A DNA stretch of 64,000 nucleotides from an uncultured Gammaproteobacteria bacterium. GTDB lineage: Bacteria; Patescibacteriota; Patescibacteriia; Magasanikbacterales; GWA2-37-8. Location of the stretch: assembly GCA_964510885.1 (NCBI GenBank), contig CAZEDL010000007.1, forward strand, positions 13,999-77,998, given 5' to 3'. Both the position numbers and the translations under genes were made by a program. Shown here in pieces: positions 8,627-61,694 of this stretch (its first letter is position 1; each line of letters starts with the position of its first letter). The notes below the pieces were generated by a model. That model saw only the letters and a program-made list of their open reading frames with translations, ran no database searches and was not told where the DNA came from.

Positions 8627-8694
8627 ACGAAGAAGCTTTAGGTTTAAAACAAAGACAGTATACCATTGTCTTGTTTTCTTGCCTAAAATCTGTG

Positions 8695-8777
8695 TGCCGG
8701 AGAGAGGACTCGAACCTCCATGGTCTTGCGACCGCTACCACCTCAAAGTAGTGCGTCTACCAATTTCGCCACCCCGG
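8695..8777 (-). tRNA. tRNA-Leu (anticodon GAG), class II with a long variable arm
   Basis: Reverse complement: GCCGGGGTGGCGAAATTGGTAGACGCACTACTTTGAGGTGGTAGCGGTCGCAAGACCATGGAGGTTCGAGTCCTCTCTCCGGCA. The cloverleaf folds with anticodon loop TTGAGGT, a GGTC/GACC variable stem and a TTCGAGT T-loop. Confidence 0.85.
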
Positions 8778-8791
8778 CTAATACTATACCT

Positions 8792-13815: not shown

Positions 13816-13823
13816 AAAAAAAG

Positions 13824-15344: not shown

Positions 15345-15345
15345 A

Positions 15346-16419: not shown

Positions 16420-16516
16420 ATTTAAATAACCCCCTTATTATACCCCAATCAGATGGCTTCTCCTATGTGGGGTAGCGGGACCCCCTTAGGAATCAAGGTA
16501 TTAAATAATAAAATAA

Positions 16517-17599
16517 CTAATCTTTGGCCGACACTATCGCCTGTGCTGGTTGCAAGCGTGGACTATGCCCGAGCCGCCGGGCAGTTTTCCCCAATCGGCA
16601 CAAAACATACGGTTGATAACCATCTGGAACAAACTTTTTTACCTGCGGAGCGGCCGGATCATCCGGATGCGCAGAGGCGCTAACCGCCGTCTGAAAACCA
16701 GCGCGCTCGGCGCGCAAGAGGGTCTGCATAAGCAGGCGGCCAAGCTCAAGCTGCTGCCTATGGCCCCGGCCGCGCGCACTAAAAATCAATAGTATCGGTG
16801 TCTCGTCGCTCAATAATTTTTCCTCTGCACCTCTAATTTTTCGCATCACATTAGTGCGCCGGATCACACGAGATGCCAACAACGATAATAACAAAGGAAA
16901 ACCCATCGTAAACCCAGGCATACCATCGGGTGCTGACGTTAAATTATGCCGTTTATACCGGGCAATCTCAGAGCGAAAATCAGCCCCGTCAAACAACCGG
17001 ACGCGCCAATCCATAATAATCCGAGCCAATTCTTGCCGTCTGGCGCTATCACTCACCACATCAATCCGTGCTTCGTCAGTAGACGATGGCAAAATCTGAG
17101 CCAAAGTATCGGGGCTGATTGCGGACGATTCGTAGGGGGCGCGATTAGTTTCACGCCGGGGAATAGAAAAAATCAAATGATCATGTGGCACAGGCAGCGT
17201 GGGAGCACGATCCGCAGGCATCGCCTCCGTCAGAGTAAGTTCCGCCACTGCTTTGGATGATTCTCCCGCTGGGAAATAGCGCACAGTAAATCGCATCCCA
17301 AAATAATCCCCCGCGACGATGATATTTTCTAGCGCGGCCCCGAGCGCTATATACAACAGTCGGCCATCGCCATCTGCCACCGGTAACTCAATCGCGGGAT
17401 TTCTATAGATAGTAATAATTCGATCGGATACAGCAAATTGCCACGGCTGGCTATTATGGCTTGAGGGAGCCAACACCGCATAGTTCAACAAAAAAAACAA
17501 CTGGTCTGCAGTTGTTCCGGACGCCGGAAAATCAGCCGGGCTGATTGTCCAGGCTTTATAATTTGGTTTCGACCTACCAGCAGTAAAAAACAAGTTCAT
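16517..17599 (-). CDS. Double-domain nitroreductase-family FMN oxidoreductase (Acg/SagB-like architecture)
   Basis: LAPSSHNSQPWQF, the nitroreductase FMN-binding signature. 360 aa, consistent with two nitroreductase-like halves. Confidence 0.6.
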   Translation of the reverse strand: MNLFFTAGRSKPNYKAWTISPADFPASGTTADQLFFLLNYAVLAPSSHNSQPWQFAVSDRIITIYRNPAIELPVADGDGRLLYIALGAALENIIVAGDYFGMRFTVRYFPAGESSKAVAELTLTEAMPADRAPTLPVPHDHLIFSIPRRETNRAPYESSAISPDTLAQILPSSTDEARIDVVSDSARRQELARIIMDWRVRLFDGADFRSEIARYKRHNLTSAPDGMPGFTMGFPLLLSLLASRVIRRTNVMRKIRGAEEKLLSDETPILLIFSARGRGHRQQLELGRLLMQTLLRAERAGFQTAVSASAHPDDPAAPQVKKFVPDGYQPYVLCRLGKTARRLGHSPRLQPAQAIVSAKD

Positions 17600-24027: not shown

Positions 24028-25242
24028 GTGCCAAAACCGTACGACGAGAAACTGCAAAAGTTCAGAACCACACAGGAGGCGGATATCCGCCAAGGAAGGC
24101 TCATACGGCTCATTCCTCAGAAGGAGGAGCGCATCAAAACAACGCTCCAAGACCTCAGGAACCAGAGTGATCGCCGGGTCGCTATCCTGGCAGGTAAGCT
24201 CCTGGCAGAGCGAACCGCCCTCTCAACCCAAGACGCCCAGTTTGAGGCTGTGAAACTCGTGGGGGAGGAGATCTGGGCCGAAGGCGAAGAGGCCAAGGCC
24301 GAGGCGGAGAGGTGGCTCCAGGGCCAGCTCACCACCCCTCTTAACGTCCACGAAACAGCAGAGCTGACACGTCGAAGCAGAGAAGAGGAAGAGCGTCTGG
24401 AGGCCATTTACCAGGCCGAGATCTCGGCCGAACAGGCCCGCCTCGCCGAGGAGCCACCAAGCCGGACCACGGTGCCGGAGCGCACAATGGATCCGACCAT
24501 GTTCCACGGCAGGGCTCTCCCGGTCCTCGAGACGGACGATATGGAGGAGGCGGGCCCGGCTCCAACCGCGCTGGACACCCTTCCCCCGCAGGAAAGAGAG
24601 CTGGCCTCGGTCATTGTGGACCAGGCTGGGATCGAATCCCGGGTCCACCCCCTCAGCCCGCACCGTCCTCCAACGACGGCGCACCGGATGATCGGGGAAG
24701 CGCCCCACCCCGCCAACCAGACTCCCATCGAGCCACTGGCGGCCACACCCAGGCGTGCGGCCACCCAGAACGAGGTCGATACCCTGGTGCGACGAGGCCC
24801 CGCTCCCAAGGAGCGATGGCACCTGAACGATAAGCAAAAATCCGTGCTATGGGTTTTGATCTTGGTGGGAGTGCTGGTGGGTGGAGGAGGATGCCTTGCG
24901 TGGCTTGTCAACAAGCTATCCACCTCGGAGCGTCCCGCCGCCGCCCGGGTGCTGAACCAAACCGCTCCCGAAATCACGCCCGCCATGCAGCGGGCGATCG
25001 ACAAGGCGGTGGCCACTGAGGTCGCCGCCAAGACAGCGGAGTGGGAGAAGAGATTCACCCTGCGCAGCGAGGTCCGCGCGCTCATCATGAGCGAGGTGAG
25101 CACCCAGCTCCCCCCGGAGCAGCCAGCGCCCCCGCGCCCCCGGCCGCTGCGCCCCCGGCCGCTGCCCGACTTCGACAAGGGCCGCCAGCCTGACAGGCCC
25201 GGCCTCCGGTACCCGTTTACCACCACGAGGCCACGCCGCTAA
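24028..25242 (+). CDS. Hypothetical Pro-rich single-pass membrane protein encoded in a high-GC island (404 aa)
   Basis: GTG start with a perfect AAGGAGG SD 6 nt upstream. Charged N-terminal region, TM helix VLWVLILVGVLVGGGGCLAWLV, PRPRPLRPRPLP tail. ~65% GC with AGA/AGG Arg codons, unlike neighbouring genes. Confidence 0.6.
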   Translation: MPKPYDEKLQKFRTTQEADIRQGRLIRLIPQKEERIKTTLQDLRNQSDRRVAILAGKLLAERTALSTQDAQFEAVKLVGEEIWAEGEEAKAEAERWLQGQLTTPLNVHETAELTRRSREEEERLEAIYQAEISAEQARLAEEPPSRTTVPERTMDPTMFHGRALPVLETDDMEEAGPAPTALDTLPPQERELASVIVDQAGIESRVHPLSPHRPPTTAHRMIGEAPHPANQTPIEPLAATPRRAATQNEVDTLVRRGPAPKERWHLNDKQKSVLWVLILVGVLVGGGGCLAWLVNKLSTSERPAAARVLNQTAPEITPAMQRAIDKAVATEVAAKTAEWEKRFTLRSEVRALIMSEVSTQLPPEQPAPPRPRPLRPRPLPDFDKGRQPDRPGLRYPFTTTRPRR

Positions 25243-27267: not shown

Positions 27268-28851
27268 CTACACCAAACTCCTCCCCGTCATCTCCGGCGG
27301 CTGAGGCAGACCCATAAGCGATAATACCGTCGGCGCCACATCGGCCAAAATTCCAACTGGTGATAACAAGCTAAGATCGCCTTCCAGGGCATCTCCCGAC
27401 GGCCCAGCCGTGCCCTGAAAATCTTTGCCGATAATCAAGAGCGGCACCGGGCTCGTGGAATGTTCTTTATCGATCTCGCCCGTCTGCAAATTAAGCACAC
27501 ATTCGGCATTGCCATGATCGGCTGTCATCACCACCACGCCGCCTTTGGCGAGCGTATGATCTACCACCTCTTTAAACGCCTGATCACACGCTTCAATCGC
27601 TTTGATACTTGCTTCGAGGTTCCCAGTGTGCCCCACCATATCCGGGTTGGCAAAATTCATTGCCACGAAATCAAACTGCCCACTATCGATCGCTTTGGCC
27701 GCTTCTTTAGCCACTGCACGCACCGACATTTCAGGCGCGTCGGCATAACTAGCCACCTTGGGCGAGGGCACGAGCACACGCTCTTCGCCAGGGAATGCCG
27801 TTTCTACCGTCCCGTTCAAGAAGAACGTCATGTGCGCATACTTTTCCGTCTCGGCAATATGAACTTGCTTTAAGCCGGCCTTACTCACTGTCTCGGCCAG
27901 CGAATTAGTCACAATAATCGGCGGATAGGCCACAATCACCGGCAATTCTTTTTCATATTCCGTCATGGTAACAAACCATAATTTATCATAATATGTGCGC
28001 TCAAATTTGTGGAATCCCGGCAACACAAACGCCTGCGTCAATTGCCTAGCCCGATCCGGACGAAAATTGAAGAATATAACGGCATCACCATTTTCAATCC
28101 TAGCCACCGGTTTCCCGCCGTCGGTAAGTACCGTCGGCACGAATTCTTCATCATAATTTTTTTGTTCATAGCTTGCTTCCACCGCCGCCACCGGATCAGT
28201 CGCCGTGCGTTCGGCCACCCCCTCAGTCATTGCCCGATAGGCTTTTTCTACCCTGTCCCAACGATTGTCGCGATCCATAGCATAATACCGGCCAGATAGA
28301 GTCGCGATCTTGCCTACCTTGAGACTTTTCAGTTTCGCCTGCAACTCTTTCACTATACCAAGGCCCGAATTAAATACCATGTCACGCCCATCAAGAATAG
28401 CGTGCACGAATACTTCTTTGGACAGTCCTTGAGCTTTACATAATTCCAAGAGAGCAGACAGGTGTTCATCGCTGGCATGTACATTACCCGACCCAACCAG
28501 CCCCACCAGATGCAATTTACTCTTATTCGCGCGCACTTTTTCAACTGCTTTCAAAAATGCCGGATTGGTAAAAAACTCTTGACTGCTAATCTCTTGGTTA
28601 ATGCGCGGACACGATTGATAATATACGCGGCCCGCCCCGATATTCAGATGCCCCACTTCAGAATTTCCCATTTCTTGCGGCATGATGCCAACTTCCATCC
28701 CCGAGGCATAGAGCGTCATCACCGGATAATTTTTCACGTACGATAAAAAATTCGGAATAGTAGCACGAGTGATAGCATTCCCCTCGCTGTCCGGGGCTAC
28801 ACCCCAGCCGTCAAAGACGGTCAGCACTACTGGTTTATAATTATAAGGCAT
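27268..28851 (-). CDS. gpmI: 2,3-bisphosphoglycerate-independent phosphoglycerate mutase (copy 1)
   Basis: MPYNYKPVVLTVFDGWGVA..., catalytic-Ser region GNSEVGHLNIGAGR, C-terminal phosphotransferase domain. 527 aa. Confidence 0.9.
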   Translation of the reverse strand: MPYNYKPVVLTVFDGWGVAPDSEGNAITRATIPNFLSYVKNYPVMTLYASGMEVGIMPQEMGNSEVGHLNIGAGRVYYQSCPRINQEISSQEFFTNPAFLKAVEKVRANKSKLHLVGLVGSGNVHASDEHLSALLELCKAQGLSKEVFVHAILDGRDMVFNSGLGIVKELQAKLKSLKVGKIATLSGRYYAMDRDNRWDRVEKAYRAMTEGVAERTATDPVAAVEASYEQKNYDEEFVPTVLTDGGKPVARIENGDAVIFFNFRPDRARQLTQAFVLPGFHKFERTYYDKLWFVTMTEYEKELPVIVAYPPIIVTNSLAETVSKAGLKQVHIAETEKYAHMTFFLNGTVETAFPGEERVLVPSPKVASYADAPEMSVRAVAKEAAKAIDSGQFDFVAMNFANPDMVGHTGNLEASIKAIEACDQAFKEVVDHTLAKGGVVVMTADHGNAECVLNLQTGEIDKEHSTSPVPLLIIGKDFQGTAGPSGDALEGDLSLLSPVGILADVAPTVLSLMGLPQPPEMTGRSLV

Positions 28852-28946: not shown

Positions 28947-30521
28947 TCACCAGAGCACCCTCCCCGTCATCTCTCCCGGAATGGCTATCTCCATACTTTT
29001 TAAAACACTCGGCGCCACATCAGCCAAACTGCCAGCGCGCAAGTGTTGTCCGCCCTTTAAGCCAAGCGCCGTGAGCCGCTCCGGCGGAGCCACCACCACA
29101 AATGGCACGGGATTACGCGAATGCTCAGTATCTATTTCTCCGGTTTTAATATTTTTCATCTCTTCGGCATTGCCATGATCCGCAGTGATAAAAACGGTAG
29201 CACCTGTAGCAAGGGCAGCACTAACAACTCGTTCTAAGGCTACATCGAGCACCCTAATCGATTCTTCTGTCGCTCCTAATTGGCCAGTATGACCAAGCAT
29301 ATCCGCATTGGCAAAATTTGCCGCTAACAAATCATACTGCTTGCTCTCGAGCGCTTTAATCAAGGCTTCGGCAATAGCAGCTGCCTGCATGGCTGGCTTA
29401 TCGGTGAAACGCTCCACACTATCAGAGGGTATTTTTAACCAGGTTATATTGCCTGAATGATCGGCATAACCACCATTAAAAAAATAAGTTATATGGGCAA
29501 ATTTTTCCGATTCAGCCACATATAGTTGTCGCCGCTCACCAAGCTGATTCACGAAGCCGCCCACCACATCGCGACTCGGAAAAGCCGTCAAGACCCCCGG
29601 CAAATCAGGGCCAAAATCCGTCATCGCCACAAATCTAATATGTGCCGGCATCCGGACACGGTCGAAGCTGGCCGCATTAGCCTTTGTGAAATCTGGCTGA
29701 ACAAAAGCTTTAGTTAGCTGGCGCGCCCGGTCGCTGCGCAAATTAAAAAAGAATACTACATCATTATCCTCCACCGGGCCAACTGGCTTGCCTTGGTCAG
29801 TTACCATCACTGTTGGCGCAACAAACTCATCGCTCTCGCCGCGATTATACGCCTCGGCGATAGCCGCTTCAGCCGTAGTAGTCGTATGCCGAGCCGAACC
29901 ATTAACAATTGCATTATAGGCCTGCTCCGTGCGCTGCCAATTTTTATTTCGATCCATGCTATAGAGCCGCCCACAAATACTAGCGATTTGTTCGCTCCCA
30001 TGACAGCGATCGCGTAATTTTTTTAGATACTGCAGAGCATCATGCTCACCTGAATCGCGTCCATCGGTAAATAAATGTAAATATACTTTTGTTATCCCTT
30101 CTCGTGACAACAGATCAAGCAGTGCATACACATGCTCGGGCGAACTGTGGGCACTATTGTGGTTGCTAAGCAAGCCCATCACATGGGCCGCCGTATTATA
30201 TTTTTTAAGATGATGCACCGCTTCATGAAATGCTGTATTTTTAAAAAATGTACCGTCTTCAATCGCCTCCGAGACATATAACGCATCCTGCTTCACCACC
30301 CGGCCCGCCCCCAAATTTAAATGTCCGGCTTCGCTATTACCCTCTTGCCCCTCGAACAAACCAACCGCCGCACCACTGGCCGCAAGCTCGGTATGCGGAT
30401 ACGTCTTTAACCACTCAAAAAAATGCGGTGCCGTGCGGGCCGAAATAGCTGATACATCGTGGTCAGTGGCTGGGCAGCCCCAGCCGTCTAATATCAAGAG
30501 CAACGTGGGAGAAGGTGTCAT
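28947..30521 (-). CDS. gpmI: 2,3-bisphosphoglycerate-independent phosphoglycerate mutase (copy 2, diverged paralog)
   Basis: MTPSPTLLLILDGWGCPA... GNSEAGHLNLGAGR. 524 aa, the same domain order as copy 1 but a clearly diverged sequence. Confidence 0.9.
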   Translation of the reverse strand: MTPSPTLLLILDGWGCPATDHDVSAISARTAPHFFEWLKTYPHTELAASGAAVGLFEGQEGNSEAGHLNLGAGRVVKQDALYVSEAIEDGTFFKNTAFHEAVHHLKKYNTAAHVMGLLSNHNSAHSSPEHVYALLDLLSREGITKVYLHLFTDGRDSGEHDALQYLKKLRDRCHGSEQIASICGRLYSMDRNKNWQRTEQAYNAIVNGSARHTTTTAEAAIAEAYNRGESDEFVAPTVMVTDQGKPVGPVEDNDVVFFFNLRSDRARQLTKAFVQPDFTKANAASFDRVRMPAHIRFVAMTDFGPDLPGVLTAFPSRDVVGGFVNQLGERRQLYVAESEKFAHITYFFNGGYADHSGNITWLKIPSDSVERFTDKPAMQAAAIAEALIKALESKQYDLLAANFANADMLGHTGQLGATEESIRVLDVALERVVSAALATGATVFITADHGNAEEMKNIKTGEIDTEHSRNPVPFVVVAPPERLTALGLKGGQHLRAGSLADVAPSVLKSMEIAIPGEMTGRVLW

Positions 30522-37241: not shown

Positions 37242-38639
37242 TCACTTAGCGATACTAACATGCACCTCTTTCAAACTTTTCTCCGGCAGAATGGTGGGCG
37301 CACCCATGAGTAGGTCACGCGCATCACCTGTCTTCGGGAATGCAATCACTTCGCGAATATTCGGTTCATTGCTAAACAACATCGCAATGCGATCAATCCC
37401 GGGAGCAAACCCGCCATGTGGCGGCGCCCCAAACGTGAACGCTTCGAGCATATGGCCAAATCGTTCCTGCTGTTCGGCTTCACTAATTTTTAAGAGATCA
37501 AAAATCTTTTTCTGCAAGGCGCGTTCGTGAATCCGAATACTGCCAGAACTAAGCTCATATCCATTTAACACCAAGTCGTAAGCATTAGCACGAATATTCA
37601 TCAGATCCTCGCCAGCCATAAATTTAGCCTTGTCTTCTTCTTTGATCGAACAGAACGGGTGATGCTTGGCCGCAATATTCCCCTCGTCATCTTTTTCAAA
37701 CATCGGGAAATCGAGAATCCAGGCAAACGCAAATTCATTGGGATCATTTTTATCCTGGCGTAGATCAGGTTTATCCGTGCCGTATGTGTCGATACATTCT
37801 TGGTAGGTAAGGCGTGGAAATGGCAGCGTCGTAATCTTTTTCTCCGGCGCCACCTGTTTCACGAGTTCAATAAACATCGCTTCAGTATAGCTAAGTACAT
37901 CCTCCTGCGTCACAAATGACATTTCAAAATCAAGCTGGGTAAATTCTGGCTGGCGATCGCCACGCTGATCTTCATCGCGAAAGCACCGCGCGATCTGGAA
38001 ATACCGCTCGAATCCAGCCACCATGCTCAGCTGCTTAAACTGTTGCGGCGATTGAGGCAAGACATAAAATTTCCCTGGGTGAAGGCGACTTGGCACAATA
38101 TATTCCCGCGAACCTTCCGGCGTCCCTTTCATCATGATCGGTGTTTCAATCTCCACAAAATCATGATCATGCATGTACTTCCGGAAAAAAGTAATGATCT
38201 GGTCGCGGCGACGAATATTTTTCTGCATGCGCTCACTGCGTAGATCAAGATAGCGATATTTAAGCCGGAGCTCTTCACTAATTGGCGTCGTATCTTTATC
38301 AATTTCAAAGGGCGGTGTTTCGGCAGTATTCAGCACAAACAATTCTTTGAGTAAAACTTCGATCGTGCCGGTTGGCATAGCAAGGTTCTTTTGCTTTTCA
38401 CCGCGTTCCTTCACGATGCCACGCACCTCTATCACCCATTCCGGGCGCACTTCTTTGAGCCGCTCTTGCGATGCCGCATCAAGCTCCGCCGGCACGCCAA
38501 CCAGCTGGGCAATGCCAGAGCGATCACGCAAATCCAAAAACACGATCTTGCCCATATTGCGGCGAGCATTGACCCAACCCTTAAGAGTCACCTCTTCACC
38601 AATTTTAGCCGCCGTTTCCACCGTTAAAATACGTTTCAT
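37242..38639 (-). CDS. aspS: Aspartyl-tRNA synthetase, short form lacking the GAD insertion domain
   Basis: Motif 2 FRDEDQRGDRQPEFTQLDFEMSF is near-identical to bacterial AspRS. Motif 3 GAPPHGGFAPGIDRIAM. YGTDKPDLR runs directly into WILDFPMFE with no ~130-aa GAD insertion. 465 aa. Confidence 0.85.
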   Translation of the reverse strand: MKRILTVETAAKIGEEVTLKGWVNARRNMGKIVFLDLRDRSGIAQLVGVPAELDAASQERLKEVRPEWVIEVRGIVKERGEKQKNLAMPTGTIEVLLKELFVLNTAETPPFEIDKDTTPISEELRLKYRYLDLRSERMQKNIRRRDQIITFFRKYMHDHDFVEIETPIMMKGTPEGSREYIVPSRLHPGKFYVLPQSPQQFKQLSMVAGFERYFQIARCFRDEDQRGDRQPEFTQLDFEMSFVTQEDVLSYTEAMFIELVKQVAPEKKITTLPFPRLTYQECIDTYGTDKPDLRQDKNDPNEFAFAWILDFPMFEKDDEGNIAAKHHPFCSIKEEDKAKFMAGEDLMNIRANAYDLVLNGYELSSGSIRIHERALQKKIFDLLKISEAEQQERFGHMLEAFTFGAPPHGGFAPGIDRIAMLFSNEPNIREVIAFPKTGDARDLLMGAPTILPEKSLKEVHVSIAK

Positions 38640-42038: not shown

Positions 42039-42680
42039 TTACAACTGCGCGTTCACCTCATCCGCAAAATTCACTGATTTCTTTTCAATCCCCTCACCCA
42101 GTTCATAGCGTACAAACCGGCGAATACTAATCTTCTCACCAATCTCGGCTGTCTTTTCTACCAAGAGCTGCTGAATTTTTTTACTATCATCTTTGATATA
42201 CAGCTGCTCGAGCAAACAAATTTCTTCGTAAAATTTGTCGATTTTACCTTTCAGAATATTTTCAATAATATTGGCTGGTTTGCCCTGGGACTTCAGCTGA
42301 TCAGCATATATCTCTTTTTCTTTTTCAACGAGTTCGGCTGGCACTGATTCGCGATCCAAATATTTCGGATTAGCGGCCGAGATATGCAAACAAATTTCTT
42401 TGACTAAATCTTTGAATGCATCCGTGCGGGCCACAAAATCAGTTTCGGAATTCACTTCGACCAAGACACCAATGCGCCCGCCGCCGTGAATATAACTCGC
42501 CACCATGCCTTCGCTGGCGACGCGATCTGCCTTTTTGGCAGCTTTTACAATCCCTTTTTTGCGCAAAATTTCACTGGCTTTGTCTACGTCGCCACCAGCT
42601 TCTTCAAGCGCGTTTTTGCAATCCATCATGCCGGCGCCAGTCGCGGCGCGCAGCTTAGCAATGTCGGCTGCTGTTGCCAT
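42039..42680 (-). CDS. tsf: Elongation factor Ts (short form)
   Basis: MATAADIAKLRAATGAGMMDCKNALEEAGGDVDKASEILRKKG. Canonical EF-Ts UBA-like N-terminus. Confidence 0.9.
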   Translation of the reverse strand: MATAADIAKLRAATGAGMMDCKNALEEAGGDVDKASEILRKKGIVKAAKKADRVASEGMVASYIHGGGRIGVLVEVNSETDFVARTDAFKDLVKEICLHISAANPKYLDRESVPAELVEKEKEIYADQLKSQGKPANIIENILKGKIDKFYEEICLLEQLYIKDDSKKIQQLLVEKTAEIGEKISIRRFVRYELGEGIEKKSVNFADEVNAQL

Positions 42681-51058: not shown

Positions 51059-51092
51059 GGCTAGGGAGGCTTAGGAAGCTAGGCAAGCTTGG
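51059..51092. repeat. Family-2 repeat (inverted orientation), left flank of the four-helix-bundle gene
   Basis: GGCTAGGGAGGCTTAGGAAGCTAGGCAAGCTTGG. Its reverse complement resembles CTTCCGAAGCCTCCCAAGCC. Confidence 0.65.
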
Positions 51093-51444
51093 AATAATTT
51101 AAATTCTTAATCAGACCATTTAACAAATAAGCAACTTCATTAACCCTCTTAAGCATAAAAATAAACTGTTCCAAATTAATATATTCTAACGACTGAGCCA
51201 ATTCAAGATAACACTGACATTCATTGAGAGAGCCTTTTGAAATATAAAGAAACTTAAGAAAATCCTTATCAGTTGGTTTACCTCTGCCTTCAGCAATATT
51301 AGCTAACACGGAAACAGCTGCACGTCGAAATTGACTCGTTAGGCCGAACATTTCCTCTCTCGGAAAATGATTCGTCAATCGATAACTTAATTTAACAAAC
51401 TCAAAACCTTTTTTCCAAACTAGCAAATTATGGTAATCCTGCAT
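51079..51444 (-). CDS. Four-helix-bundle protein (TIGR02436-like, also known as the 23S-IVS-encoded protein family)
   Basis: NLLVWKKGFEFVKLSYRLTNHFPREEMFGLTSQFRRAAVSVLANIAEGRGK...SKGSLNECQCYLELA. Characteristic family pattern. Confidence 0.75.
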   Translation of the reverse strand: MQDYHNLLVWKKGFEFVKLSYRLTNHFPREEMFGLTSQFRRAAVSVLANIAEGRGKPTDKDFLKFLYISKGSLNECQCYLELAQSLEYINLEQFIFMLKRVNEVAYLLNGLIKNLNYSKLA

Positions 51445-52401: not shown

Positions 52402-53091
52402 TTAAACCCCATTCCAATGGGCTCTGGCCCACTCCAGCCGCTCCGGAAGCCCAATGTCGATCCACGGGCGATCAGACACATACACATCCAAATTCTTTAA
52501 GTGCGGGAACATCTCATACTCGATACTAAAAGCGGCTGGTTCGGGAAACTGCTCACTTATGGAAGCGTTAAATAAATACAATCCACCGTTTATAATACCC
52601 ATTTCGTGCTGCCCTTCTTTTTCTTTAAATTCCAGCAAATGGTATGCCTCATCATACACCAAGGTTCCATATGAAGCAGCATCGTCAACCTTAGAGCCTA
52701 AAATAATACCATCACAATGAGGACGCAATCGCCCACACATATCTTTGATATCAATGGTGGTTAAAATATCGCCGTTAAATATTAGCGTTGGCTCATCCGG
52801 CCGAGGCAAAAAAGTATACGCGTACTTAATCGCTCCACCAGTGCCGAGCCGTTCGGGCTCCACGGCGTAAATAATTCTAACTCCGTTTACCGTATCACCT
52901 AATTCTTTTTTCAAGACATTAGACAAATGGCCAGCGGCCAACACCACTTCGCCAACGCCAAGCTCTTTAATCTTCTCTAGTTGCCACTCAAACACTGTTT
53001 TCCCTTTTATCGGTAGCAAAACTTTCGGAATATCTTTGGTAATCTCACCGAGCCGAGTTGACAAGCCGCCGCATAAAATCACTGCATTCAT
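52402..53091 (-). CDS. Sugar-phosphate nucleotidyltransferase (NTP_transferase fold)
   Basis: MNAVILCGGLSTRLGEITKDIPKVLLPI (GxGxRL motif) ... GTGGAI. The sugar specificity cannot be called. Confidence 0.7.
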   Translation of the reverse strand: MNAVILCGGLSTRLGEITKDIPKVLLPIKGKTVFEWQLEKIKELGVGEVVLAAGHLSNVLKKELGDTVNGVRIIYAVEPERLGTGGAIKYAYTFLPRPDEPTLIFNGDILTTIDIKDMCGRLRPHCDGIILGSKVDDAASYGTLVYDEAYHLLEFKEKEGQHEMGIINGGLYLFNASISEQFPEPAAFSIEYEMFPHLKNLDVYVSDRPWIDIGLPERLEWARAHWNGV

Positions 53092-53621
53092 AGCACAAAA
53101 AATTTACCGACTTGAGTAACGAGCGCTGCCACCGCGCAGCCGCCGACAATATCAAGTGGGTAGTGTACCCCGGCAAACACCCGTCCAAAGGAAACAACCA
53201 CCGCCAAAATTAATAGCGCAGGCCAAAAAGGCATATAAAAAGCGTGACCAAGAAACACCAGCAGCCAGGCCGTCATAGCGTGATCCGACGGAAATGACTT
53301 CCAACTCATTAACGGTGTGAACAGGAGTCGGCTACGTGGATTTGATACATGCGGCCTCGGTTCACGCACCATAAGACCTATGAATACATTAAGTACCCAG
53401 GCTGCTACCCAGGCAACTACAGAGATTGCCGCTGCCAAAAACAAACGCATCGCATCTTCCACTATGTATGCATACATCCCTAACCCATACACTGCCACCA
53501 TTACTAAAATGGCATATTCTGCGCTAAATCGGCCGACAGTATCAAGAATCGGGCTTTTGCCGACCCATTTATTTACCCAAAAAAATATTTTTTGATTCCA
53601 ATTCATAGTAGATACAGGCAT
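53088..53621 (-). CDS. PAP2-family phosphatase (membrane)
   Basis: KxxxxxxRP (LMVREPRP), PSDH (FPSDHAM), SRxxxxxHxxxD (FGRVFAGVHYPLDI). The ORF is trimmed to Met MPVSTM so it does not run through the tRNA. Confidence 0.7.
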   Translation of the reverse strand: MPVSTMNWNQKIFFWVNKWVGKSPILDTVGRFSAEYAILVMVAVYGLGMYAYIVEDAMRLFLAAAISVVAWVAAWVLNVFIGLMVREPRPHVSNPRSRLLFTPLMSWKSFPSDHAMTAWLLVFLGHAFYMPFWPALLILAVVVSFGRVFAGVHYPLDIVGGCAVAALVTQVGKFFVL

Positions 53622-53740
53622 AAATATGGTAGCAGTTTTGCTACCCTCTGGCAAACCTAAAACCAACCTCCCCTCTTGAAAAAAACCCTTAGCATGGTAC
53701 ACTTCTCCCGACCATCCAGGGGGCTTGCGTATTGTCTTTA

Positions 53741-53816
53741 GGGCCTGTAGCTCAGGGGTTAGAGCGCCACCCTTATAAGGTGGATGTCGATGGTTCAATT
53801 CCATCCAGGCCCACCA
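53741..53816 (+). tRNA. tRNA-Ile with a UAU anticodon, CCA encoded
   Basis: GGGCCTGTAGCTCAGGGGTTAGAGCGCCACCCTTATAAGGTGGATGTCGATGGTTCAATTCCATCCAGGCCCACCA. The body is near-identical to bacterial tRNA-Ile(GAU). Anticodon stem CCACC/GGTGG, loop CTTATAA, positions 34-36 TAT. Confidence 0.8.
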
Positions 53817-54163: not shown

Positions 54164-55135
54164 ATGACTACCCGAGCTCAAAATTTTACTGTTTCCGAAA
54201 CCGATATCCGCCCCCGGCTTGATATTTTTTTATCGGCCGAAGCAGACTTGAGCCGCTCCCAAATCCAAAAACTCATTAAATCAGGCCAAGTTTTGGTGAA
54301 CAATAAACCTGCCGGTAAGACCGGGCAACCTCTGCCACCGGGAGCAACGGTGACAATTACGCCAGCGCCAAATAAGACTACCACCCCTGACAGACTTAAG
54401 ACTAAAAAAACGATCGCCGCCGCACCAAATTTAAAAATTATTGCGGCGACCGACGACTATATCGTAATTGATAAACCAACCGGACTCCTGACCCACCCTA
54501 CCCTGGCCAATGAGCCAAACAGCGTTGCCAGTTTCCTCGTCAAAAAATATCCGGAATTAAAAAATGTCGGCGATGATCCGGTGCGCCCCGGCATTGTTCA
54601 CCGCCTTGATAAGGAAGCCTCGGGATTATTGGTGGTAGCCCGGACACCAGCCATGTTTGAACACCTAAAAAATCAATTTAAAAACCGCTCCATTGGTAAA
54701 GAATATACCGTACTAGCCCACGGCAAAGTCGCCAAGGATTGGGATGAGATTAAATTCCGTATTTCACGAGGTGATACTAATGAACGGATGGCCGCCCAGC
54801 CGACACTAGTGCGAGGCGAGGCCAGCACCCTCGGCAAAGAAGCTCTTACCGAATTTTTGGTCGACAAACGGTTTGTTAATTTTACCCTTTTAAAAGTCAC
54901 CATTCACACCGGCCGCATGCATCAGATCCGGGTTCACCTGCTCGCCTATAATCACCCGGTCGTAGGCGACCCCTTATACAAACAAAAAAAACGTAAATCC
55001 ATCTGGGATGCCAAATTAGGCCGCTTATTCTTGCACTGCAACCGCCTATCGTTCGTGGATTTGAATGGAGAGACCCAAGAATTCAACTCCGCTCTCCCCC
55101 CTGAACTAAGCGCATTTTTAACTACCCTAAGCTAA
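54164..55135 (+). CDS. rluD: RluA-family pseudouridine synthase with N-terminal S4 domain (RluD-like)
   Basis: S4 region RLDIFLSAEADLSRSQIQKLIKSGQVLVN. Catalytic HRLDKEASGLLVVART. Confidence 0.8.
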   Translation: MTTRAQNFTVSETDIRPRLDIFLSAEADLSRSQIQKLIKSGQVLVNNKPAGKTGQPLPPGATVTITPAPNKTTTPDRLKTKKTIAAAPNLKIIAATDDYIVIDKPTGLLTHPTLANEPNSVASFLVKKYPELKNVGDDPVRPGIVHRLDKEASGLLVVARTPAMFEHLKNQFKNRSIGKEYTVLAHGKVAKDWDEIKFRISRGDTNERMAAQPTLVRGEASTLGKEALTEFLVDKRFVNFTLLKVTIHTGRMHQIRVHLLAYNHPVVGDPLYKQKKRKSIWDAKLGRLFLHCNRLSFVDLNGETQEFNSALPPELSAFLTTLS

Positions 55136-55145
55136 CCCGATTGTT

Positions 55146-55754
55146 ATGGATTCTTCAGCTCAGCACCGCGGCCTACTCGTCATTATCTCTTCCCCATCAG
55201 GCGGCGGCAAAGATTCGGTTATCAACGCGCTATTAAAAATCTTCCCGAGCTCCACCCGCTTTATCACCACCACTTCACGCCCCCCTCGCCCAGGCAACCG
55301 CGAAGGCGTTGATTATTACTTTATCAGCCCAGAAGAATTTCAACGTCGCATCGAACAACAAAAATTTCTAGAATGGAATTTTTATGCTGGCAATTACTAC
55401 GGCACCGAAGCCAAACACCTGGCTGACCTACAAACCAAATTCGATTTGATTCTCACCCAGATCGAAGTCAACGGCAAACACCACCTTGATCAGGCCGGAG
55501 TCGAAAACCTGTCCATCTTCCTTCTGCCAGAAAGCCTCGAGACCCTCGGCAAACGCATCGCTGCTCGCGGCGGCGTTAGCCCCGAATCACTGGCCGAACG
55601 CCTCGCTATCGCCAAGCAAGAAATTGCCGCTTCTTCGGACTATGATTATTGCGTAGCTAACCGCGAAGGCGCGCTAGCCGAAACCGTGGCTAAAGTTAGC
55701 GAAATTATCAAGGAACATCTGGCTAATCGCATAGGTATTGACAAAACCGCTTAA
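55146..55754 (+). CDS. gmk: Guanylate kinase
   Basis: LLVIISSPSGGGKDSVINALLK (P-loop) ... YYFISPEEFQRRIEQQKFLEWNFYAGNYYGT. Confidence 0.85.
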   Translation: MDSSAQHRGLLVIISSPSGGGKDSVINALLKIFPSSTRFITTTSRPPRPGNREGVDYYFISPEEFQRRIEQQKFLEWNFYAGNYYGTEAKHLADLQTKFDLILTQIEVNGKHHLDQAGVENLSIFLLPESLETLGKRIAARGGVSPESLAERLAIAKQEIAASSDYDYCVANREGALAETVAKVSEIIKEHLANRIGIDKTA

Positions 55755-55864: not shown

Positions 55865-56224
55865 ATGAGCGAAATGACCGCTAATAGCACTGCAATGCCA
55901 ACCTACAAACCAGGCATGGTGGTGAAAGTGCACCAAAAAATTAAAGAAACCAACGCCAAAGGCGAAGAGAAAGAACGTATTCAGATCTACGAAGGCACCA
56001 TTATCGCCGTCCGCCACGGCAAAGAAGCCGGCGCCACCGTCACGGTGCGCAAAGTATCCGAAGGCATCGGCGTCGAAAAAATCTTCCCGATCCTTTCACC
56101 AATGGTTGCCAAAATGGAAATCGTCAAACAATTTGCTGTCCGCCGCGCCAAACTCAACTACCTCCGCGACAAAGATTTCAAACGCAAGATGAACGAAATC
56201 AAAGACGATAAAGCCAAAAAATAA
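55865..56224 (+). CDS. rplS: 50S ribosomal protein L19
   Basis: KERIQIYEGTIIAVRHGKEAGATVTVRKVSEGIGVEKIFPILSPMVAKMEIVKQFAVRRAKLNYLR. Confidence 0.9.
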   Translation: MSEMTANSTAMPTYKPGMVVKVHQKIKETNAKGEEKERIQIYEGTIIAVRHGKEAGATVTVRKVSEGIGVEKIFPILSPMVAKMEIVKQFAVRRAKLNYLRDKDFKRKMNEIKDDKAKK

Positions 56225-59487: not shown

Positions 59488-60924
59488 TTAATCGTGTGAA
59501 ATGCCAAACTTTTTAAAATATACATCCTGATCTTTCTGAGTACTGCTTCCAAAAAACTGACTAATGTCGCTAATTTTTGCCGCTTCAATTTGCATAAGCA
59601 CGCCATCGCGGACATCTTCCACTTTCAAAAAATAACTATTGGGAATATCTTTCCAATGCTGAGCAAAAAAGAAATCGTCCCCTAAATCTTCACCCAACCT
59701 ACCAATAAAATGTCGTTGTCCTCGGCCAATATGGAAGCTCTCATTCATAAAAAAAGACACAACCAAACCCCGAAACGTACCACCCTTAACCTCACAATCT
59801 TTAACGGCTTTATCGAGTATGTCATTATCAACACTTACAACAAAATTTTGTAGTTTTTCATCTACATTTGAAGGCTTCAACCCAAGCGAAGCAATTGACG
59901 AATTAGTCATCGACACTGAAAAACTAGTAGTTTGCGTACAAATCCCGTAGAGATCACCGATACTATTGACAGGCGGATCATTCCATTCACGCGTAAGAAA
60001 ATCTGGAAATAATTCTTTGGCCAAAGAATTATGAGTTACCGTTATAAAAATATTGCCTTCTTGACAGCTATATTCATTACTGCGCGCATCAAAAAGACAT
60101 GATGAATTTTTATTCCCCTTACGGTCGCAATAATCACCCCAACATGTTTGCTTGCCTAAATCTTTTACATAAAAACGCTTACCACAATAAAAGTTACGCT
60201 CATTTTTATCTTCCGGCCTCTCATTGAAAAATGTTGCACTGTATCTAATATCCGACGGAGGATTTTCAATCGGCAGCGACTGCGCTTCGGTACCTCGCGC
60301 AAAAGCGAAACTTTGAAGATTCTTTATCTTATCTGACATTTGCGAACAAAATTTCGGCATAATTGCCTGTGGCTTCAGCATCCACACGCTCGGCAACCGG
60401 AAATTCACCAAATTGGGATTAATCGTATTGAGTATCACATACGACATGTAGGCAATAAACAGCCCAATCAGCGCGCCCCCAATCCGCGTCTTCGCACCGC
60501 TAATCACTTCAGAACTGCCTCCCGAAACTGCCCATTGGATCCCAGACACAATCAGCACAATTACCGCCACCACCCCCGCAAGGCCAATCGCATACCGGTA
60601 CATCTGTAGAATAAACACACCAAGATCAGCAAATTTGCGCTGGCCGCCAAACGAAATAGAGGTTACGGTTTGCCCACCCGGCAGACATTTACCCCACTCT
60701 TCACCCGGACAATTTTTCAGGTCCGGCACCCAGCCATCTTTTAAATCTTCGTCAGAAGCGTTCGGATTAAACGCGCGCCGAGAATCAACACAGTCATTTT
60801 TCTTCCAACACAGCGGATTAAACTCCGGTATAGGTATAAGCGGTTCCTGTGCCAATGCCAACCCTGGCAGCAGTGTGGCGAGCACTATACCCACCAAAAA
60901 ACCTGTCAAAATAAATCTCCGCAT
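59488..60924 (-). CDS. Hypothetical secreted/membrane protein with Cys-rich extracytoplasmic regions and a central 2-TM hairpin
   Basis: Signal peptide MRRFILTGFLVGIVLATLLPGLALAQ. CWKKNDC...NCPGEEWGKC. TM pair VFILQMYRYAIGLAGVVAVIVLIVSGIQW / GALIGLFIAYMSYVILNTI. Later C-rich stretch CGKRFYVKDLGKQTCWGDYCDRKGNKNSSC. The start is moved to the second Met to avoid overlapping the upstream gene. Confidence 0.5.
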   Translation of the reverse strand: MRRFILTGFLVGIVLATLLPGLALAQEPLIPIPEFNPLCWKKNDCVDSRRAFNPNASDEDLKDGWVPDLKNCPGEEWGKCLPGGQTVTSISFGGQRKFADLGVFILQMYRYAIGLAGVVAVIVLIVSGIQWAVSGGSSEVISGAKTRIGGALIGLFIAYMSYVILNTINPNLVNFRLPSVWMLKPQAIMPKFCSQMSDKIKNLQSFAFARGTEAQSLPIENPPSDIRYSATFFNERPEDKNERNFYCGKRFYVKDLGKQTCWGDYCDRKGNKNSSCLFDARSNEYSCQEGNIFITVTHNSLAKELFPDFLTREWNDPPVNSIGDLYGICTQTTSFSVSMTNSSIASLGLKPSNVDEKLQNFVVSVDNDILDKAVKDCEVKGGTFRGLVVSFFMNESFHIGRGQRHFIGRLGEDLGDDFFFAQHWKDIPNSYFLKVEDVRDGVLMQIEAAKISDISQFFGSSTQKDQDVYFKKFGISHD

Positions 60925-60935
60925 AAAATGTAGAG

Positions 60936-61694
60936 CTAAAAACCTTGTAAAAATGTATCCCACACGGCAAATGGGATCACCCCTTCTACTTTTTCTCCGT
61001 TGATAAAAAAGGTCGGGGTCCCGCGCACGCCAAAGCGGGAACCATCCACATAATCACGATTCACTGCCGTACGTGCTGCCGGCGCTGCCAGACAGGCCGA
61101 CAACACAGCCCCATCAAGATCATTAGCCTCGACAATCTGGAGTTGGGTAGCCGCATCAAGCTGATCAGGCAAGATATCCTGCTTTGCAAACAACCAATCC
61201 TGCACCGGCCAATACTTGCCCTGAGCGCCAGCGCAATAAACCAATTCCGACAACTGCGAGGCTCCCGGATGGGTAGTCTCTACCGGAAAATGGCGCATAA
61301 TATATTTAATTTTAGTTGGGTATTTTTGCAAAATCTGTTTAATTATCGGGGCTGCCTCTCTGCAATTGGGGCATTTAAAGTCAGTAAACTCGACAATCGT
61401 AAGCGGCGCCCCGCCATTGCCCTGATACGGACTGCTTGTATTCTCCAAAATCGCCCGCTCTGTAGCAGATAGTACGGAAGTCCGCAGGCTGTCGGCTTGA
61501 TTCCCAGTACTAAAGCCGGCAAAAAGGCCCTGTGACAAGCCGGTAGACTGACCACTTCGGATGTCACGCCAAAATCGAGCTGTAATCAAGATGAACAAAA
61601 AAACGGCCGTCGCTACAAAGACTGCTAAAATTAGCAATAAAATCCCCCACCACCGCCAATACCATGAGCGAGGTACCGAGGTCATTTCCTCCAT
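60936..61694 (-). CDS. DsbA-like thiol-disulfide oxidoreductase with N-terminal TM anchor
   Basis: Thioredoxin-fold CxxC active site TDFKCPNCREAAPII. N-terminal TM WWGILLLILAVFVATAVFLFILI. Confidence 0.75.
   Translation of the reverse strand: MEEMTSVPRSWYWRWWGILLLILAVFVATAVFLFILITARFWRDIRSGQSTGLSQGLFAGFSTGNQADSLRTSVLSATERAILENTSSPYQGNGGAPLTIVEFTDFKCPNCREAAPIIKQILQKYPTKIKYIMRHFPVETTHPGASQLSELVYCAGAQGKYWPVQDWLFAKQDILPDQLDAATQLQIVEANDLDGAVLSACLAAPAARTAVNRDYVDGSRFGVRGTPTFFINGEKVEGVIPFAVWDTFLQGF

What the first reader, a model, noticed from the sequence alone, without database searches (positions are those of the whole stretch)
53741..53816. tRNA-Ile carrying a UAU anticodon on a canonical tRNA-Ile(GAU)-type body
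The cloverleaf is unambiguous. Its body (acceptor GGGCCTG, D arm GCTCAGGGGTTAGAGC, T arm GGTTCAATTCC) is the classic bacterial tRNA-Ile, but positions 34-36 read TAT. Decoding AUA with tRNA-Ile(UAU) instead of lysidine-modified tRNA-Ile(CAU)/TilS is rare in bacteria and is known from only a few lineages. Discrimination against AUG requires special modification or ribosome features.
Basis: seen in the sequence. Interest (0 to 1): 0.65.

Follow-up and report, generated by a model that had tools for sequence, protein, structure and literature searches.

The report
Patescibacterial isoleucine tRNA with UAU anticodon
This is a real isoleucine tRNA gene that reads the rare AUA codon directly through a UAU anticodon; textbooks call this rare in bacteria, but it turns out to be the usual arrangement in the ultra-small Patescibacteria (CPR) to which this genome belongs.

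Summary
Window 53741-53816 (+) is a canonical 76-nt tRNA (Rfam 74.8 bits, ARAGORN Ile/tat) with T at position 34 and an encoded CCA.

T34 is not an error. Syntenic orthologues in Magasanikbacteria MAGs also carry TAT, with compensatory stem changes.

AUA is rare but used (4.7 per 1000 codons, in 26 of 37 genes). It aligns with Ile in homologues as often as AUU/AUC do, so this tRNA decodes AUA as Ile.

The rarity claim matches the literature (17-19 genomes) but not sequence space:
At least 58 hits are named Patescibacteria; 16 are Planctomycetota.
- Of 80 metagenome loci chosen only by FtsH similarity, 60 hold a tRNA-Ile(UAU). It lies downstream of ftsH in 31 of the 32 loci with at least 4.5 kb of downstream sequence.
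- None of these loci has tilS, which sits upstream of ftsH in the cultured Saccharibacterium Southlakia.

Whether this genome itself lacks tilS and tRNA-Ile2(CAU) cannot be tested from 64 kb; there is none in the window. The "GAU-type body" claim is only weakly supported.

Verdict: a new member of a known kind, lineage-typical, of moderate interest.

The parts
53741..53816 (+). tRNA-Ile(UAU) gene, 76 nt, with encoded 3' CCA (53814-53816)
   Evidence: ARAGORN. Rfam tRNA 74.8 bits, E = 1.5e-14. Sequence read.
53774..53776 (+). Anticodon T34-A35-T36 within the loop C32-U33-U34-A35-U36-A37-A38 (53772-53778)
   Evidence: TAT is conserved in the syntenic orthologues L086, L078 and L085.
53676..53703 (+). 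Promoter-like site (TTGAAA, 16 nt spacer, TG-TACACT) ending 38 bp upstream of the tRNA
   Evidence: Consensus scan. The count is not above the shuffle expectation (3 found against 1.6 +/- 1.3). It is only positionally plausible.
53088..53621 (-). PAP2-family phosphatase, the upstream divergent neighbour. The listed ORF runs to 53804 and overlaps the tRNA, but homology starts at about residue 65, so the real start is probably Met62 or Met67 (53621 or 53606).
   Evidence: L086 has the same neighbour.
54164..55135 (+). RluA-family pseudouridine synthase with an N-terminal S4 domain (RluD/RluC-like), co-directional, 348 bp downstream of the tRNA. It belongs to a gene-order block conserved in Patescibacteria.
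   Evidence: TIGR00005 202.6 bits; RluD model below its cut-off. Pfam S4 + PseudoU_synth_2. Synteny.
55146..55754 (+). Guanylate kinase (context gene)
   Evidence: TIGR03263 164.7 bits. Same order in L078.
55865..56224 (+). Ribosomal protein bL19 (rplS), the last member of the conserved tRNA-Ile(UAU) ... rlu ... rplS block
   Evidence: Pfam Ribosomal_L19, 104 bits. Adjacent to the tRNA block in 13 tRNA-selected loci and 14 ftsH-selected loci.

Best explanation
The gene encodes a functional minor isoleucine tRNA whose anticodon is UAU in the DNA. It reads the rare AUA codon by direct U34-A pairing and is charged by IleRS.

It is not an oddity of this genome. It is the lineage-typical AUA decoder of Patescibacteria (CPR); the window comes from a Magasanikbacteria-like member. 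The gene is inherited vertically inside an old gene-order block: ftsH, tRNA-Ile(UAU), tRNA-Val, an RluA-family synthase, rplS, then more tRNAs. The window keeps the part tRNA-Ile(UAU) ... rlu ... rplS.

Most likely it replaces the TilS / lysidine tRNA-Ile2(CAU) system rather than duplicating it.

Shown here: the gene, its conservation, the use of AUA as Ile, and the distribution.
Inferred: charging by IleRS, absence of tilS genome-wide, and the way AUG misreading is avoided. By analogy with Mycoplasma mobile and the B. subtilis suppressor, that would be an unmodified or minimally modified U34, with discrimination by the ribosome.
For: The tRNA is real and canonical.

AUA use: 63 of 13,449 codons (4.7 per 1000; 7.5% of Ile codons), present in 26 of 37 family-supported genes, including valS, pgk and eno.

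AUA meaning: AUA columns align with Ile 51% and Met 9% in homologues. AUU/AUC columns give 52% Ile; AUG columns give 33% Met.

The window is chromosomal housekeeping DNA with CPR hallmarks.

Nearest relatives are Magasanikbacteria MAGs with the same gene order around a TAT tRNA:
- L086: NusG 86% identity, QueA 70%.
- L078: UvrA 59% identity, bL19 66%.

58 hits are named Patescibacteria, and about 25 more are unnamed or doubtfully labelled MAGs, many with CPR synteny.

The family is functional: 119 distinct sequences, A73 in 120 of 121, and stems 93-100% paired with many compensatory pair types.

Independent sample: of 80 metagenome loci chosen only by FtsH similarity (54-70% identity), 60 hold tRNA-Ile(UAU). 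It lies downstream of ftsH in 31 of the 32 loci with at least 4.5 kb of downstream sequence.

Undercount: only 9 of those 60 tRNAs fit the strict pattern, so the genome scan undercounts heavily.

TilS:
- No PP-loop ORF was found.
- No E. coli TilS similarity (best E = 2.3) in 1.58 Mb covering the window and 200 loci.
- Ten ORFs tested just upstream of ftsH gave NUDIX, NYN, S1 or no family match, none TilS.
- In the cultured Saccharibacterium Southlakia, tilS lies directly upstream of ftsH, is essential, and only one tRNA-Ile is annotated.

Literature precedent for UAU replacing TilS.
Against: The rest of this genome could not be read, so tilS and a tRNA-Ile2(CAU) may lie outside the 64 kb.

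At least one Patescibacterium (Southlakia) has an essential TilS, so the phylum is not uniformly tilS-free.

Some bacteria carry both systems: L. casei, Cyanothece and Ferrimonas.

Absence of tilS next to ftsH is positional evidence only. If tilS were placed at random, only about 1.6-2 copies would be expected in the 1.58 Mb sampled.

The ftsH-selected loci carry no taxonomy and descend from a query that already had the arrangement.

Aminoacylation, the modification state of U34 and the IleRS type are all unobserved.
Confidence: 0.62

Rival explanations
1. Redundant decoder. The genome also encodes TilS and tRNA-Ile2(CAU), and the UAU tRNA is an additional, possibly dispensable AUA reader, as proposed for Lactobacillus casei, Cyanothece and Ferrimonas.
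For: Such double systems exist. A cultured Saccharibacterium has an essential TilS. The window covers only a small part of the genome. CAT tRNAs of uncertain identity lie near UAU genes in some loci.
Against: No tilS was found in the window or in 200 related loci, including its conserved position upstream of ftsH. The TilS-positive Southlakia has only one annotated tRNA-Ile. The CAT tRNAs next to UAU genes look like initiator plus elongator Met and are only about 63% identical to the window's UAU tRNA. Deep conservation of the UAU gene argues for an essential role.
Confidence: 0.3
2. Recent G34-to-T (or C34-to-T) mutation, sequencing error or pseudogene. On this reading the gene is a damaged tRNA-Ile(GAU) copy, comparable to the laboratory B. 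subtilis tRNA-Ile1 G34U suppressor.
For: The body resembles E. coli tRNA-Ile(GAU) most closely (83-84%). The B. subtilis suppressor shows that one step suffices.
Against: TAT is shared by syntenic orthologues whose neighbouring proteins are only 40-86% identical, and by well over 170 further distinct tRNAs with compensatory stem changes. The gene is not in an rRNA operon. The cloverleaf is intact.
Confidence: 0.02
3. Codon reassignment. The UAU tRNA carries another amino acid (for example Met, as in many mitochondria), so AUA is not Ile here.
For: None specific. CPR lineages are known for other code changes (my own knowledge, not tested here).
Against: AUA columns match Ile 51% and Met 9%, indistinguishable from AUU/AUC columns. 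A73 and an Ile-like body are present. All three stop codons are in use.
Confidence: 0.02

Closest known systems
Mycoplasma mobile tRNA-Ile2(UAU) decoding system (Taniguchi et al. 2013, PMC3575796)
   Same: A bacterial, genomically encoded UAU anticodon on an Ile tRNA that reads AUA. A37 and A38 are present, so t6A37 is possible. No tilS is seen nearby.
   Different: In M. mobile four points were shown experimentally: U34 is unmodified, IleRS carries Arg865, the ribosome rejects AUG, and tilS is absent. None of these could be tested here. That paper derives the gene from a CAU gene, whereas this body is closer to GAU-type tRNA-Ile. The lineages differ (Tenericutes against Patescibacteria).
tRNA-Ile3(UAU) of Bifidobacterium and Neorickettsia (tRNAscan-SE 2.0, PMC8450103; Taniguchi 2013)
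   Same: A UAU tRNA present instead of tRNA-Ile2(CAU) in free-standing chromosomal genes.
   Different: Those genomes have a eukaryote-type IleRS and a documented lack of tilS. The ileS gene of this organism is not in the window.
B. subtilis tilS-deletion suppressor, tRNA-Ile1 G34U (Fabret 2011; Kohrer 2014, PMC3919564)
   Same: A tRNA-Ile(GAU)-like body carrying U34. It shows that unmodified U34 can read AUA with only weak AUG binding.
   Different: That is a laboratory point mutation in an rRNA-operon copy. Here the gene is ancient, conserved and has its own locus.
Canonical TilS / lysidine tRNA-Ile2(CAU) system
   Same: The same task: decoding AUA as Ile without reading AUG.
   Different: That system needs C34 and the PP-loop enzyme TilS. 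Here position 34 is T, and no TilS was found in the window or in related loci.
Eukaryotic tRNA-Ile(UAU) with a pseudoU-A-pseudoU anticodon; archaeal tRNA-Ile(UAU) of Nanoarchaeum and Korarchaeum
   Same: An encoded UAU anticodon for AUA. The archaeal cases also come from reduced-genome, symbiotic lineages.
   Different: Different domains of life. The eukaryotic modification is made by Pus1 and depends on an intron. No intron is present here.

Membership tests
Bacterial tRNA-Ile(UAU) AUA decoder ('tRNA-Ile3', M. mobile type) | Canonical cloverleaf tRNA with an encoded anticodon UAU | tested here: met
Bacterial tRNA-Ile(UAU) AUA decoder ('tRNA-Ile3', M. mobile type) | Isoleucine identity (charged by IleRS) | tested here: inconclusive
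   A73, U12-A23, C4-G69, A37 and A38 are present. The best E. coli match is tRNA-Ile(GAU) at 83-84%. Aminoacylation itself cannot be tested.
Bacterial tRNA-Ile(UAU) AUA decoder ('tRNA-Ile3', M. mobile type) | AUA codons are used in the genome and mean Ile | tested here: met
   4.7 per 1000 codons, in 26 of 37 genes. AUA columns are 51% Ile and 9% Met in homologues.
Bacterial tRNA-Ile(UAU) AUA decoder ('tRNA-Ile3', M. mobile type) | Genome lacks tilS and tRNA-Ile2(CAU) | tested here: inconclusive
   None in the 64-kb window and none in 200 related loci.
Bacterial tRNA-Ile(UAU) AUA decoder ('tRNA-Ile3', M. mobile type) | IleRS adapted to UAU (Arg at the E. coli Trp905 position, or a eukaryote-type IleRS) | not testable with these tools
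   ileS is not in the window or in any fetched locus.
Bacterial tRNA-Ile(UAU) AUA decoder ('tRNA-Ile3', M. mobile type) | U34 state, and AUG rejection by the ribosome | not testable with these tools
   Needs tRNA mass spectrometry and ribosome binding assays.
tRNA-Ile2(CAU) / lysidine system | C at position 34 of the gene | tested here: not met
   T at 53774, conserved in orthologues.
tRNA-Ile1(GAU) | G at position 34; usually located in the 16S-23S spacer | tested here: not met
   T34. The neighbours are PAP2 and rluD-like genes, with no rRNA in the window.
Spontaneous G34U suppressor of a tRNA-Ile1 gene (B. subtilis type) | A recent single-base change with near-identical GAU paralogues | tested here: not met
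   UAU is conserved across deeply diverged genomes. Same-locus GAU genes in L092 and L105 are only 73-77% identical to the window tRNA.

The most novel reading that the evidence does not exclude
The UAU tRNA is the ancestral, radiation-wide AUA decoder of Patescibacteria, and TilS is retained or regained only in some lineages such as host-associated Saccharibacteria. Its U34 is made AUG-proof by a dedicated modification written by the RluA-family pseudouridine synthase that sits beside it in the conserved ftsH, tRNA-Ile(UAU), tRNA-Val, rluA, rplS block. This would be pseudoU34, convergent with the eukaryotic pseudoU-A-pseudoU anticodon. The first half alone (lineage-wide replacement of TilS) I put at about 0.5. 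The full reading, including the pseudouridine mechanism, is much less likely.
Probability: 0.07. Interest if true: 0.8.

Novelty: new member of a known kind. Interest (0 to 1): 0.4.

Why it matters
Reviews and recent papers still describe bacterial tRNA-Ile(UAU) as a handful of exceptions to the universal TilS / lysidine rule.

If a radiation as large as Patescibacteria routinely encodes UAU, and has largely dropped TilS, three things follow:
- TilS is not the near-universal, essential bacterial enzyme it is taken to be, for example as an antibacterial target or a marker gene.
- AUA/AUG discrimination by a U34 anticodon must be solved in thousands of lineages with unusual, reduced ribosomes.
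- The mixed state within Saccharibacteria (TilS in Southlakia, UAU in environmental relatives) offers a natural system for studying how the switch happens.

For this window alone the practical meaning is modest. The tRNA is normal for its lineage and should be annotated as tRNA-Ile(UAU), not flagged as an error.

Tried and rejected
Locating the source genome:
- The look-up of encoding contigs found QueA and enolase not on record.
- NusG is on record only on a 1.9-kb Logan contig of SRR16481186.
- So the rest of the genome could not be inspected.

TilS searches, all negative:
- PP-loop motif scans of the window and all loci.
- E. coli TilS tblastn over 1.58 Mb.
- Pfam scans of ORFs upstream of ftsH.

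IleRS:
- A ValS-paralogue search found only ValS and LeuRS. The L022 ORF beside a Dormibacterota UAU tRNA is LeuRS.

Literature:
- No paper in the library links tilS, lysidine or tRNA-Ile(UAU) with CPR or Patescibacteria.
- The Minisyncoccus supplements hold no gene table.
- Suzuki & Numata 2014 is not held.

Body-type test:
- Identity to the E. coli Ile1, Ile2 and Met bodies favours Ile1 for this tRNA but is uninformative across the family.

RluA-family neighbour:
- No NCBIfam equivalog reached its cut-off, so the substrate is unknown.

Rejected readings:
- Sequencing error, because of the conservation.
- Mobile-element or phage origin, because the context is housekeeping and syntenic.
- Codon reassignment.

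Full report
OBSERVATION

ARAGORN finds two tRNAs in the window: tRNA-Leu(gag) at 8694-8778 (-) and tRNA-Ile(tat) at 53741-53816 (+). Rfam's tRNA model scores the second at 74.8 bits (E = 1.5e-14), full length, with no non-canonical pair.

Read directly, the gene has these parts:
- acceptor stem GGGCCTG / CAGGCCC
- U8 A9
- D arm GCTC-AGGGGTTA-GAGC
- anticodon arm CCACC-CTTATAA-GGTGG, with U34 A35 U36 at 53774-53776
- variable loop ATGTC
- T arm GATGG-TTCAATT-CCATC
- discriminator A73
- an encoded CCA

A sigma-70-like site (TTGAAA, 16 nt, TG-TACACT) ends 38 bp upstream. The scan as a whole is not above its shuffle expectation, so I treat this as positional plausibility only.

The 238-aa ORF on the opposite strand that overlaps the tRNA is a PAP2 phosphatase. 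Its homology begins near residue 65, so its real start (Met62 or Met67, at 53621 or 53606) lies outside the tRNA.

WHAT GENOME THIS IS

The window is ordinary chromosomal housekeeping DNA. It holds:
- rplJ with its L10 leader
- argS, tyrS and valS
- two gpmI genes, eno, pgk and gap
- aspS, scpAB, rlmI, tsf, rpsB, gyrB and nusG
- queA, mltG, gmk, rplS, uvrA and prfA

Several features are typical of ultra-small Patescibacteria (CPR):
- an archaeal-type UMP kinase
- a 465-aa AspRS
- a 213-aa EF-Ts
- many ORFs with no family match

A tblastn of the tRNA's neighbours against loci fetched from species genomes shows that the nearest relatives are Magasanikbacteria MAGs:
- L086 has NusG (86% identity), QueA (70%), MltG, a nucleotidyltransferase and PAP2, followed by a tRNA-Ile(UAU). 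This is the window's order.
- L078 and L085 have the tRNA next to the RluD-like gene, gmk, rplS, uvrA (59% identity) and the 491-aa hypothetical protein.

The four orthologous tRNAs all read TAT but differ in acceptor and anticodon stems by paired changes. This disposes of the sequencing-error refutation.

WHAT THE tRNA DOES

In 37 family-supported genes, AUA accounts for 63 of 13,449 codons. That is 4.7 per 1000 codons and 7.5% of Ile codons. It occurs in 26 of the 37 genes, including valS (10 times), pgk and eno. AUA is therefore rare but unavoidable.

Where window proteins align with homologues, AUA positions face Ile in 51% of cells and Met in 9%. This is the same profile as AUU/AUC positions (52% Ile) and unlike AUG positions (33% Met). 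AUA means Ile here, and an AUA-reading Ile tRNA is required. This gene is the only candidate in the window.

No tilS, no other PP-loop ATPase and no CAT-anticodon tRNA lie in the 64 kb.

HOW RARE IT IS

The literature held here treats bacterial tRNA-Ile(UAU) as exceptional:
- 19 species in tRNADB-CE
- 17 genomes (Bifidobacterium, Mycoplasma, Neorickettsia) in the tRNAscan-SE 2.0 survey
- 'rare cases' in a 2026 preprint

I found no paper connecting it, or tilS, with CPR.

The sequence collections say otherwise. One scan of 185,579 species genomes used a deliberately strict pattern (TAGCTCA .. GAGC N6 CTTATAA .. GGTTCNANTCC). By record title the hits are:
- 58 named Patescibacteria (Saccharibacteria, Dojkabacteria/WS6, Peri-/Peregrinibacteria, Parcubacteria/Paceibacterota, Magasanik-, Woese-, Falkow-, Kuenen-, Buchanan-, Nealson-, Yanofsky-, Levyi-, Moraniibacteria, Microgenomates, Minisyncoccia)
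- 13 third-party assemblies labelled 'uncultured Gammaproteobacteria' and 12 unnamed 'bacterium' MAGs, many with CPR-type synteny such as ValS about 50% identical to the window's
- 16 Planctomycetota
- 7 Ignavibacteria or Bacteroidota
- 2 Dormibacterota
- 2 Actinomycetota
- 10 others

The 121 tRNAs comprise 119 distinct sequences. A73 is present in 120 of 121. The acceptor, anticodon and T stems, which the pattern did not constrain, are 93-100% paired with four to six pair types per position. This is a functional, diverging gene family.

SWITCH OR REDUNDANCY?

The genome itself is out of reach:
- QueA and enolase products are not on record.
- NusG is on record only on a 1.9-kb Logan contig.

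So I looked for indirect evidence.

In the cultured Saccharibacterium Southlakia epibionticum, the Tn-seq gene table lists TilS (294 aa). It is essential at the later time points, lies directly upstream of ftsH, and only one tRNA-Ile is annotated in the genome. Patescibacteria are therefore not uniformly tilS-free, and the classical tilS-ftsH linkage exists in the phylum.

In four of the tRNA-selected loci (L044, L055, L069, L111), ftsH is instead followed directly by tRNA-Ile(UAU), with no TilS upstream.

To remove the selection on the tRNA, I fetched 80 metagenome loci by FtsH similarity alone (54-70% identity to the L055 FtsH). The results:
- 60 of the 80 contain a tRNA-Ile(UAU).
- It lies downstream of ftsH in 31 of the 32 loci with at least 4.5 kb of downstream sequence.
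- It lies within 1 kb in 43 of the 62 loci with at least 1 kb of downstream sequence, and on the same strand in 36 of those.
- It is never upstream of ftsH.
- The 60 tRNAs are 58 distinct sequences, and only 9 fit my strict scan pattern. Many have C38 or U38. The genome scan therefore undercounts several-fold.
- None of the 80 loci has a PP-loop ORF.
- Of ten ORFs just upstream of ftsH, four are NUDIX, one NYN and two S1-domain proteins; three have no significant family match. None is TilS.
- E. coli TilS finds nothing (best E = 2.3) in 1.58 Mb comprising the window and all 200 loci.

This is positional rather than genome-wide evidence. The ftsH query came from a locus that already had the arrangement. 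Even so, the pattern is TilS with ftsH and no UAU tRNA in Southlakia, against a UAU tRNA with ftsH and no TilS in environmental relatives. That pattern favours replacement over redundancy. I put replacement at roughly 0.6-0.65 and redundancy at 0.3.

BODY TYPE

Against all complete E. coli genomes, the best match is the rRNA-spacer tRNA-Ile(GAU) at 83-84% identity, with three places per genome. Locus L121 confirms the 16S-Ile-Ala-23S context.

In my global alignment, identity to the window tRNA is:
- 81% to E. coli tRNA-Ile(GAU)
- 73% to E. coli ileX (CAU)
- 70% to E. coli elongator Met
- 77% and 73% to the CPR tRNA-Ile(GAU) genes that share a locus with a UAU gene (L092 and L105)
- about 63% to the CAT tRNAs beside UAU genes, which look like initiator and elongator Met

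Over all 120 UAU tRNAs, however, the mean identities to the three E. coli bodies are equal (0.72, 0.71, 0.71).

It does fit the B. subtilis precedent, in which a tRNA-Ile1 G34U mutant rescues a tilS deletion. It fits less well the CAU-to-UAU route proposed for M. mobile.

MECHANISM

Shown:
- an intact, conserved tRNA gene with UAU
- AUA used as Ile
- lineage-wide distribution

Inferred from established knowledge (Taniguchi 2013; Kohrer 2014):
- U34 pairs with the A of AUA.
- t6A37 is expected on A37 after U36.
- IleRS must accept UAU.
- AUG misreading must be limited either by the ribosome or by a U34 modification.

None of these steps can be tested with sequence from this window.

A SIDE OBSERVATION

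In many Patescibacteria the tRNA sits in a conserved block: ftsH, tRNA-Ile(UAU), tRNA-Val(GAC or UAC), an RluA-family pseudouridine synthase, rplS, tRNA-Leu(GAG), Val, Phe, Gly.
- The synthase is near the tRNA in 15 of the 120 tRNA-selected loci. It is co-directional and downstream in 12 of them, and in all 13 of the ftsH-selected loci where both lie within 1 kb.
- In Parcubacteria and Saccharibacteria the enzyme lacks the S4 domain (about 215-235 aa) and reaches no NCBIfam equivalog.
- In the window and its Magasanikbacteria relatives it has an S4 domain and looks RluD/RluC-like.
- The window keeps the remnant: tRNA-Ile(UAU), a 103-124-aa ORF with no family match, rlu, gmk, rplS.

This linkage may be no more than an old translation-gene cluster. 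It also permits the speculative idea that the enzyme pseudouridylates the anticodon, as in eukaryotic tRNA-Ile(pseudoU-A-pseudoU). I give that idea a low probability.

VERDICT

- Observation: confirmed.
- Interpretation: partly supported.
- The thing is a new member of a known kind, bacterial tRNA-Ile(UAU) AUA decoders, and it is typical for its lineage rather than aberrant.
- The broader point is that this supposedly rare solution is the norm across a very large uncultured radiation and is anchored in a conserved gene block. I could not find this described. It is worth a systematic genome-wide survey.
- For this single locus the interest is moderate (0.4).

Noticed in passing
L013, L018, L021, L043, L045, L073, L118, L119, L120 (Planctomycetota loci): Giant tRNA gene arrays, 17-35 tRNA genes within 8 kb or less. 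They carry both Ile(GAU) and Ile(UAU), and some genes get odd 4-base 'anticodons' from ARAGORN. The UAU tRNA there is always flanked by Lys(UUU) and Lys(CUU).
   Followed up: no
L044, L055, L069, L111; L122-L201: ftsH is followed by tRNA-Ile(UAU) in most Patescibacteria-like loci (31 of the 32 with at least 4.5 kb downstream). tilS, which precedes ftsH in Southlakia and many other bacteria, is absent there. The ORFs upstream of ftsH are NUDIX, NYN or S1 proteins.
   Followed up: yes
window 54164-55135; L026, L034, L037, L041, L053, L069, L070, L083, L115, L122-L148: An RluA-family pseudouridine synthase is co-located with tRNA-Ile(UAU)/tRNA-Val and rplS across several Patescibacteria classes. 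It lacks the S4 domain in most lineages and has it in the Magasanikbacteria-like ones. It reaches no equivalog model, so its substrate is unknown.
   Followed up: partly
L055 2489-3958: A TruD-family pseudouridine synthase lies divergently next to ftsH and tRNA-Ile(UAU) in one Saccharibacteria locus.
   Followed up: no
L123, L124, L128, L132, L141, L143 and many of L146-L201: Many tRNA-Ile(UAU) genes next to ftsH have C or U at position 38 (loops CTTATAC or CTTATAT) instead of the A38 seen in the window tRNA. Only 9 of 60 fit the strict search pattern.
   Followed up: partly
window 24028-25242: A locally GC-rich stretch (55% against about 47%) holds a 404-aa charged, Pro-rich ORF with one hydrophobic segment and no family match. 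Several long overlapping ORFs lie on the opposite strand.
   Followed up: partly
window 27268-28851 and 28947-30521: Two tandem paralogues of cofactor-independent phosphoglycerate mutase (gpmI) sit upstream of eno in a reduced genome.
   Followed up: no
window 3913-4593; 37242-38639; 42039-42680: An archaeal-type UMP kinase (TIGR02076), a short 465-aa AspRS matched in two stretches (the usual insertion domain is missing) and a 213-aa EF-Ts. These are reduced or atypical versions of core genes.
   Followed up: no
window 51079-51444: A four-helix-bundle protein of the '23S rRNA intervening sequence protein' family (TIGR02436) lies between queA and mltG, with no rRNA nearby.
   Followed up: no
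window 12724-17599: A cluster of a ThiF/Rv1355c-like adenylyltransferase, a 506-aa ORF with no family match, a Trp/Glu-dehydrogenase-like protein and an Acg-family FMN oxidoreductase. This is unexpected metabolic content for a CPR genome.
   Followed up: no
window 59488-60963; L078 925-2316: A 491-aa protein with faint T4SS-pilin and DUF6112 hits is conserved next to uvrA in a Magasanikbacteria relative (28% identity).
   Followed up: no
L160 1832-1905; L164 2439-2512: An unusual CAT-anticodon tRNA (D arm GTTCAA..GAAC, short variable region) lies directly upstream of ftsH. In L164 it coexists with tRNA-Ile(UAU). Whether it is Met or Ile2 was not resolved.
   Followed up: no
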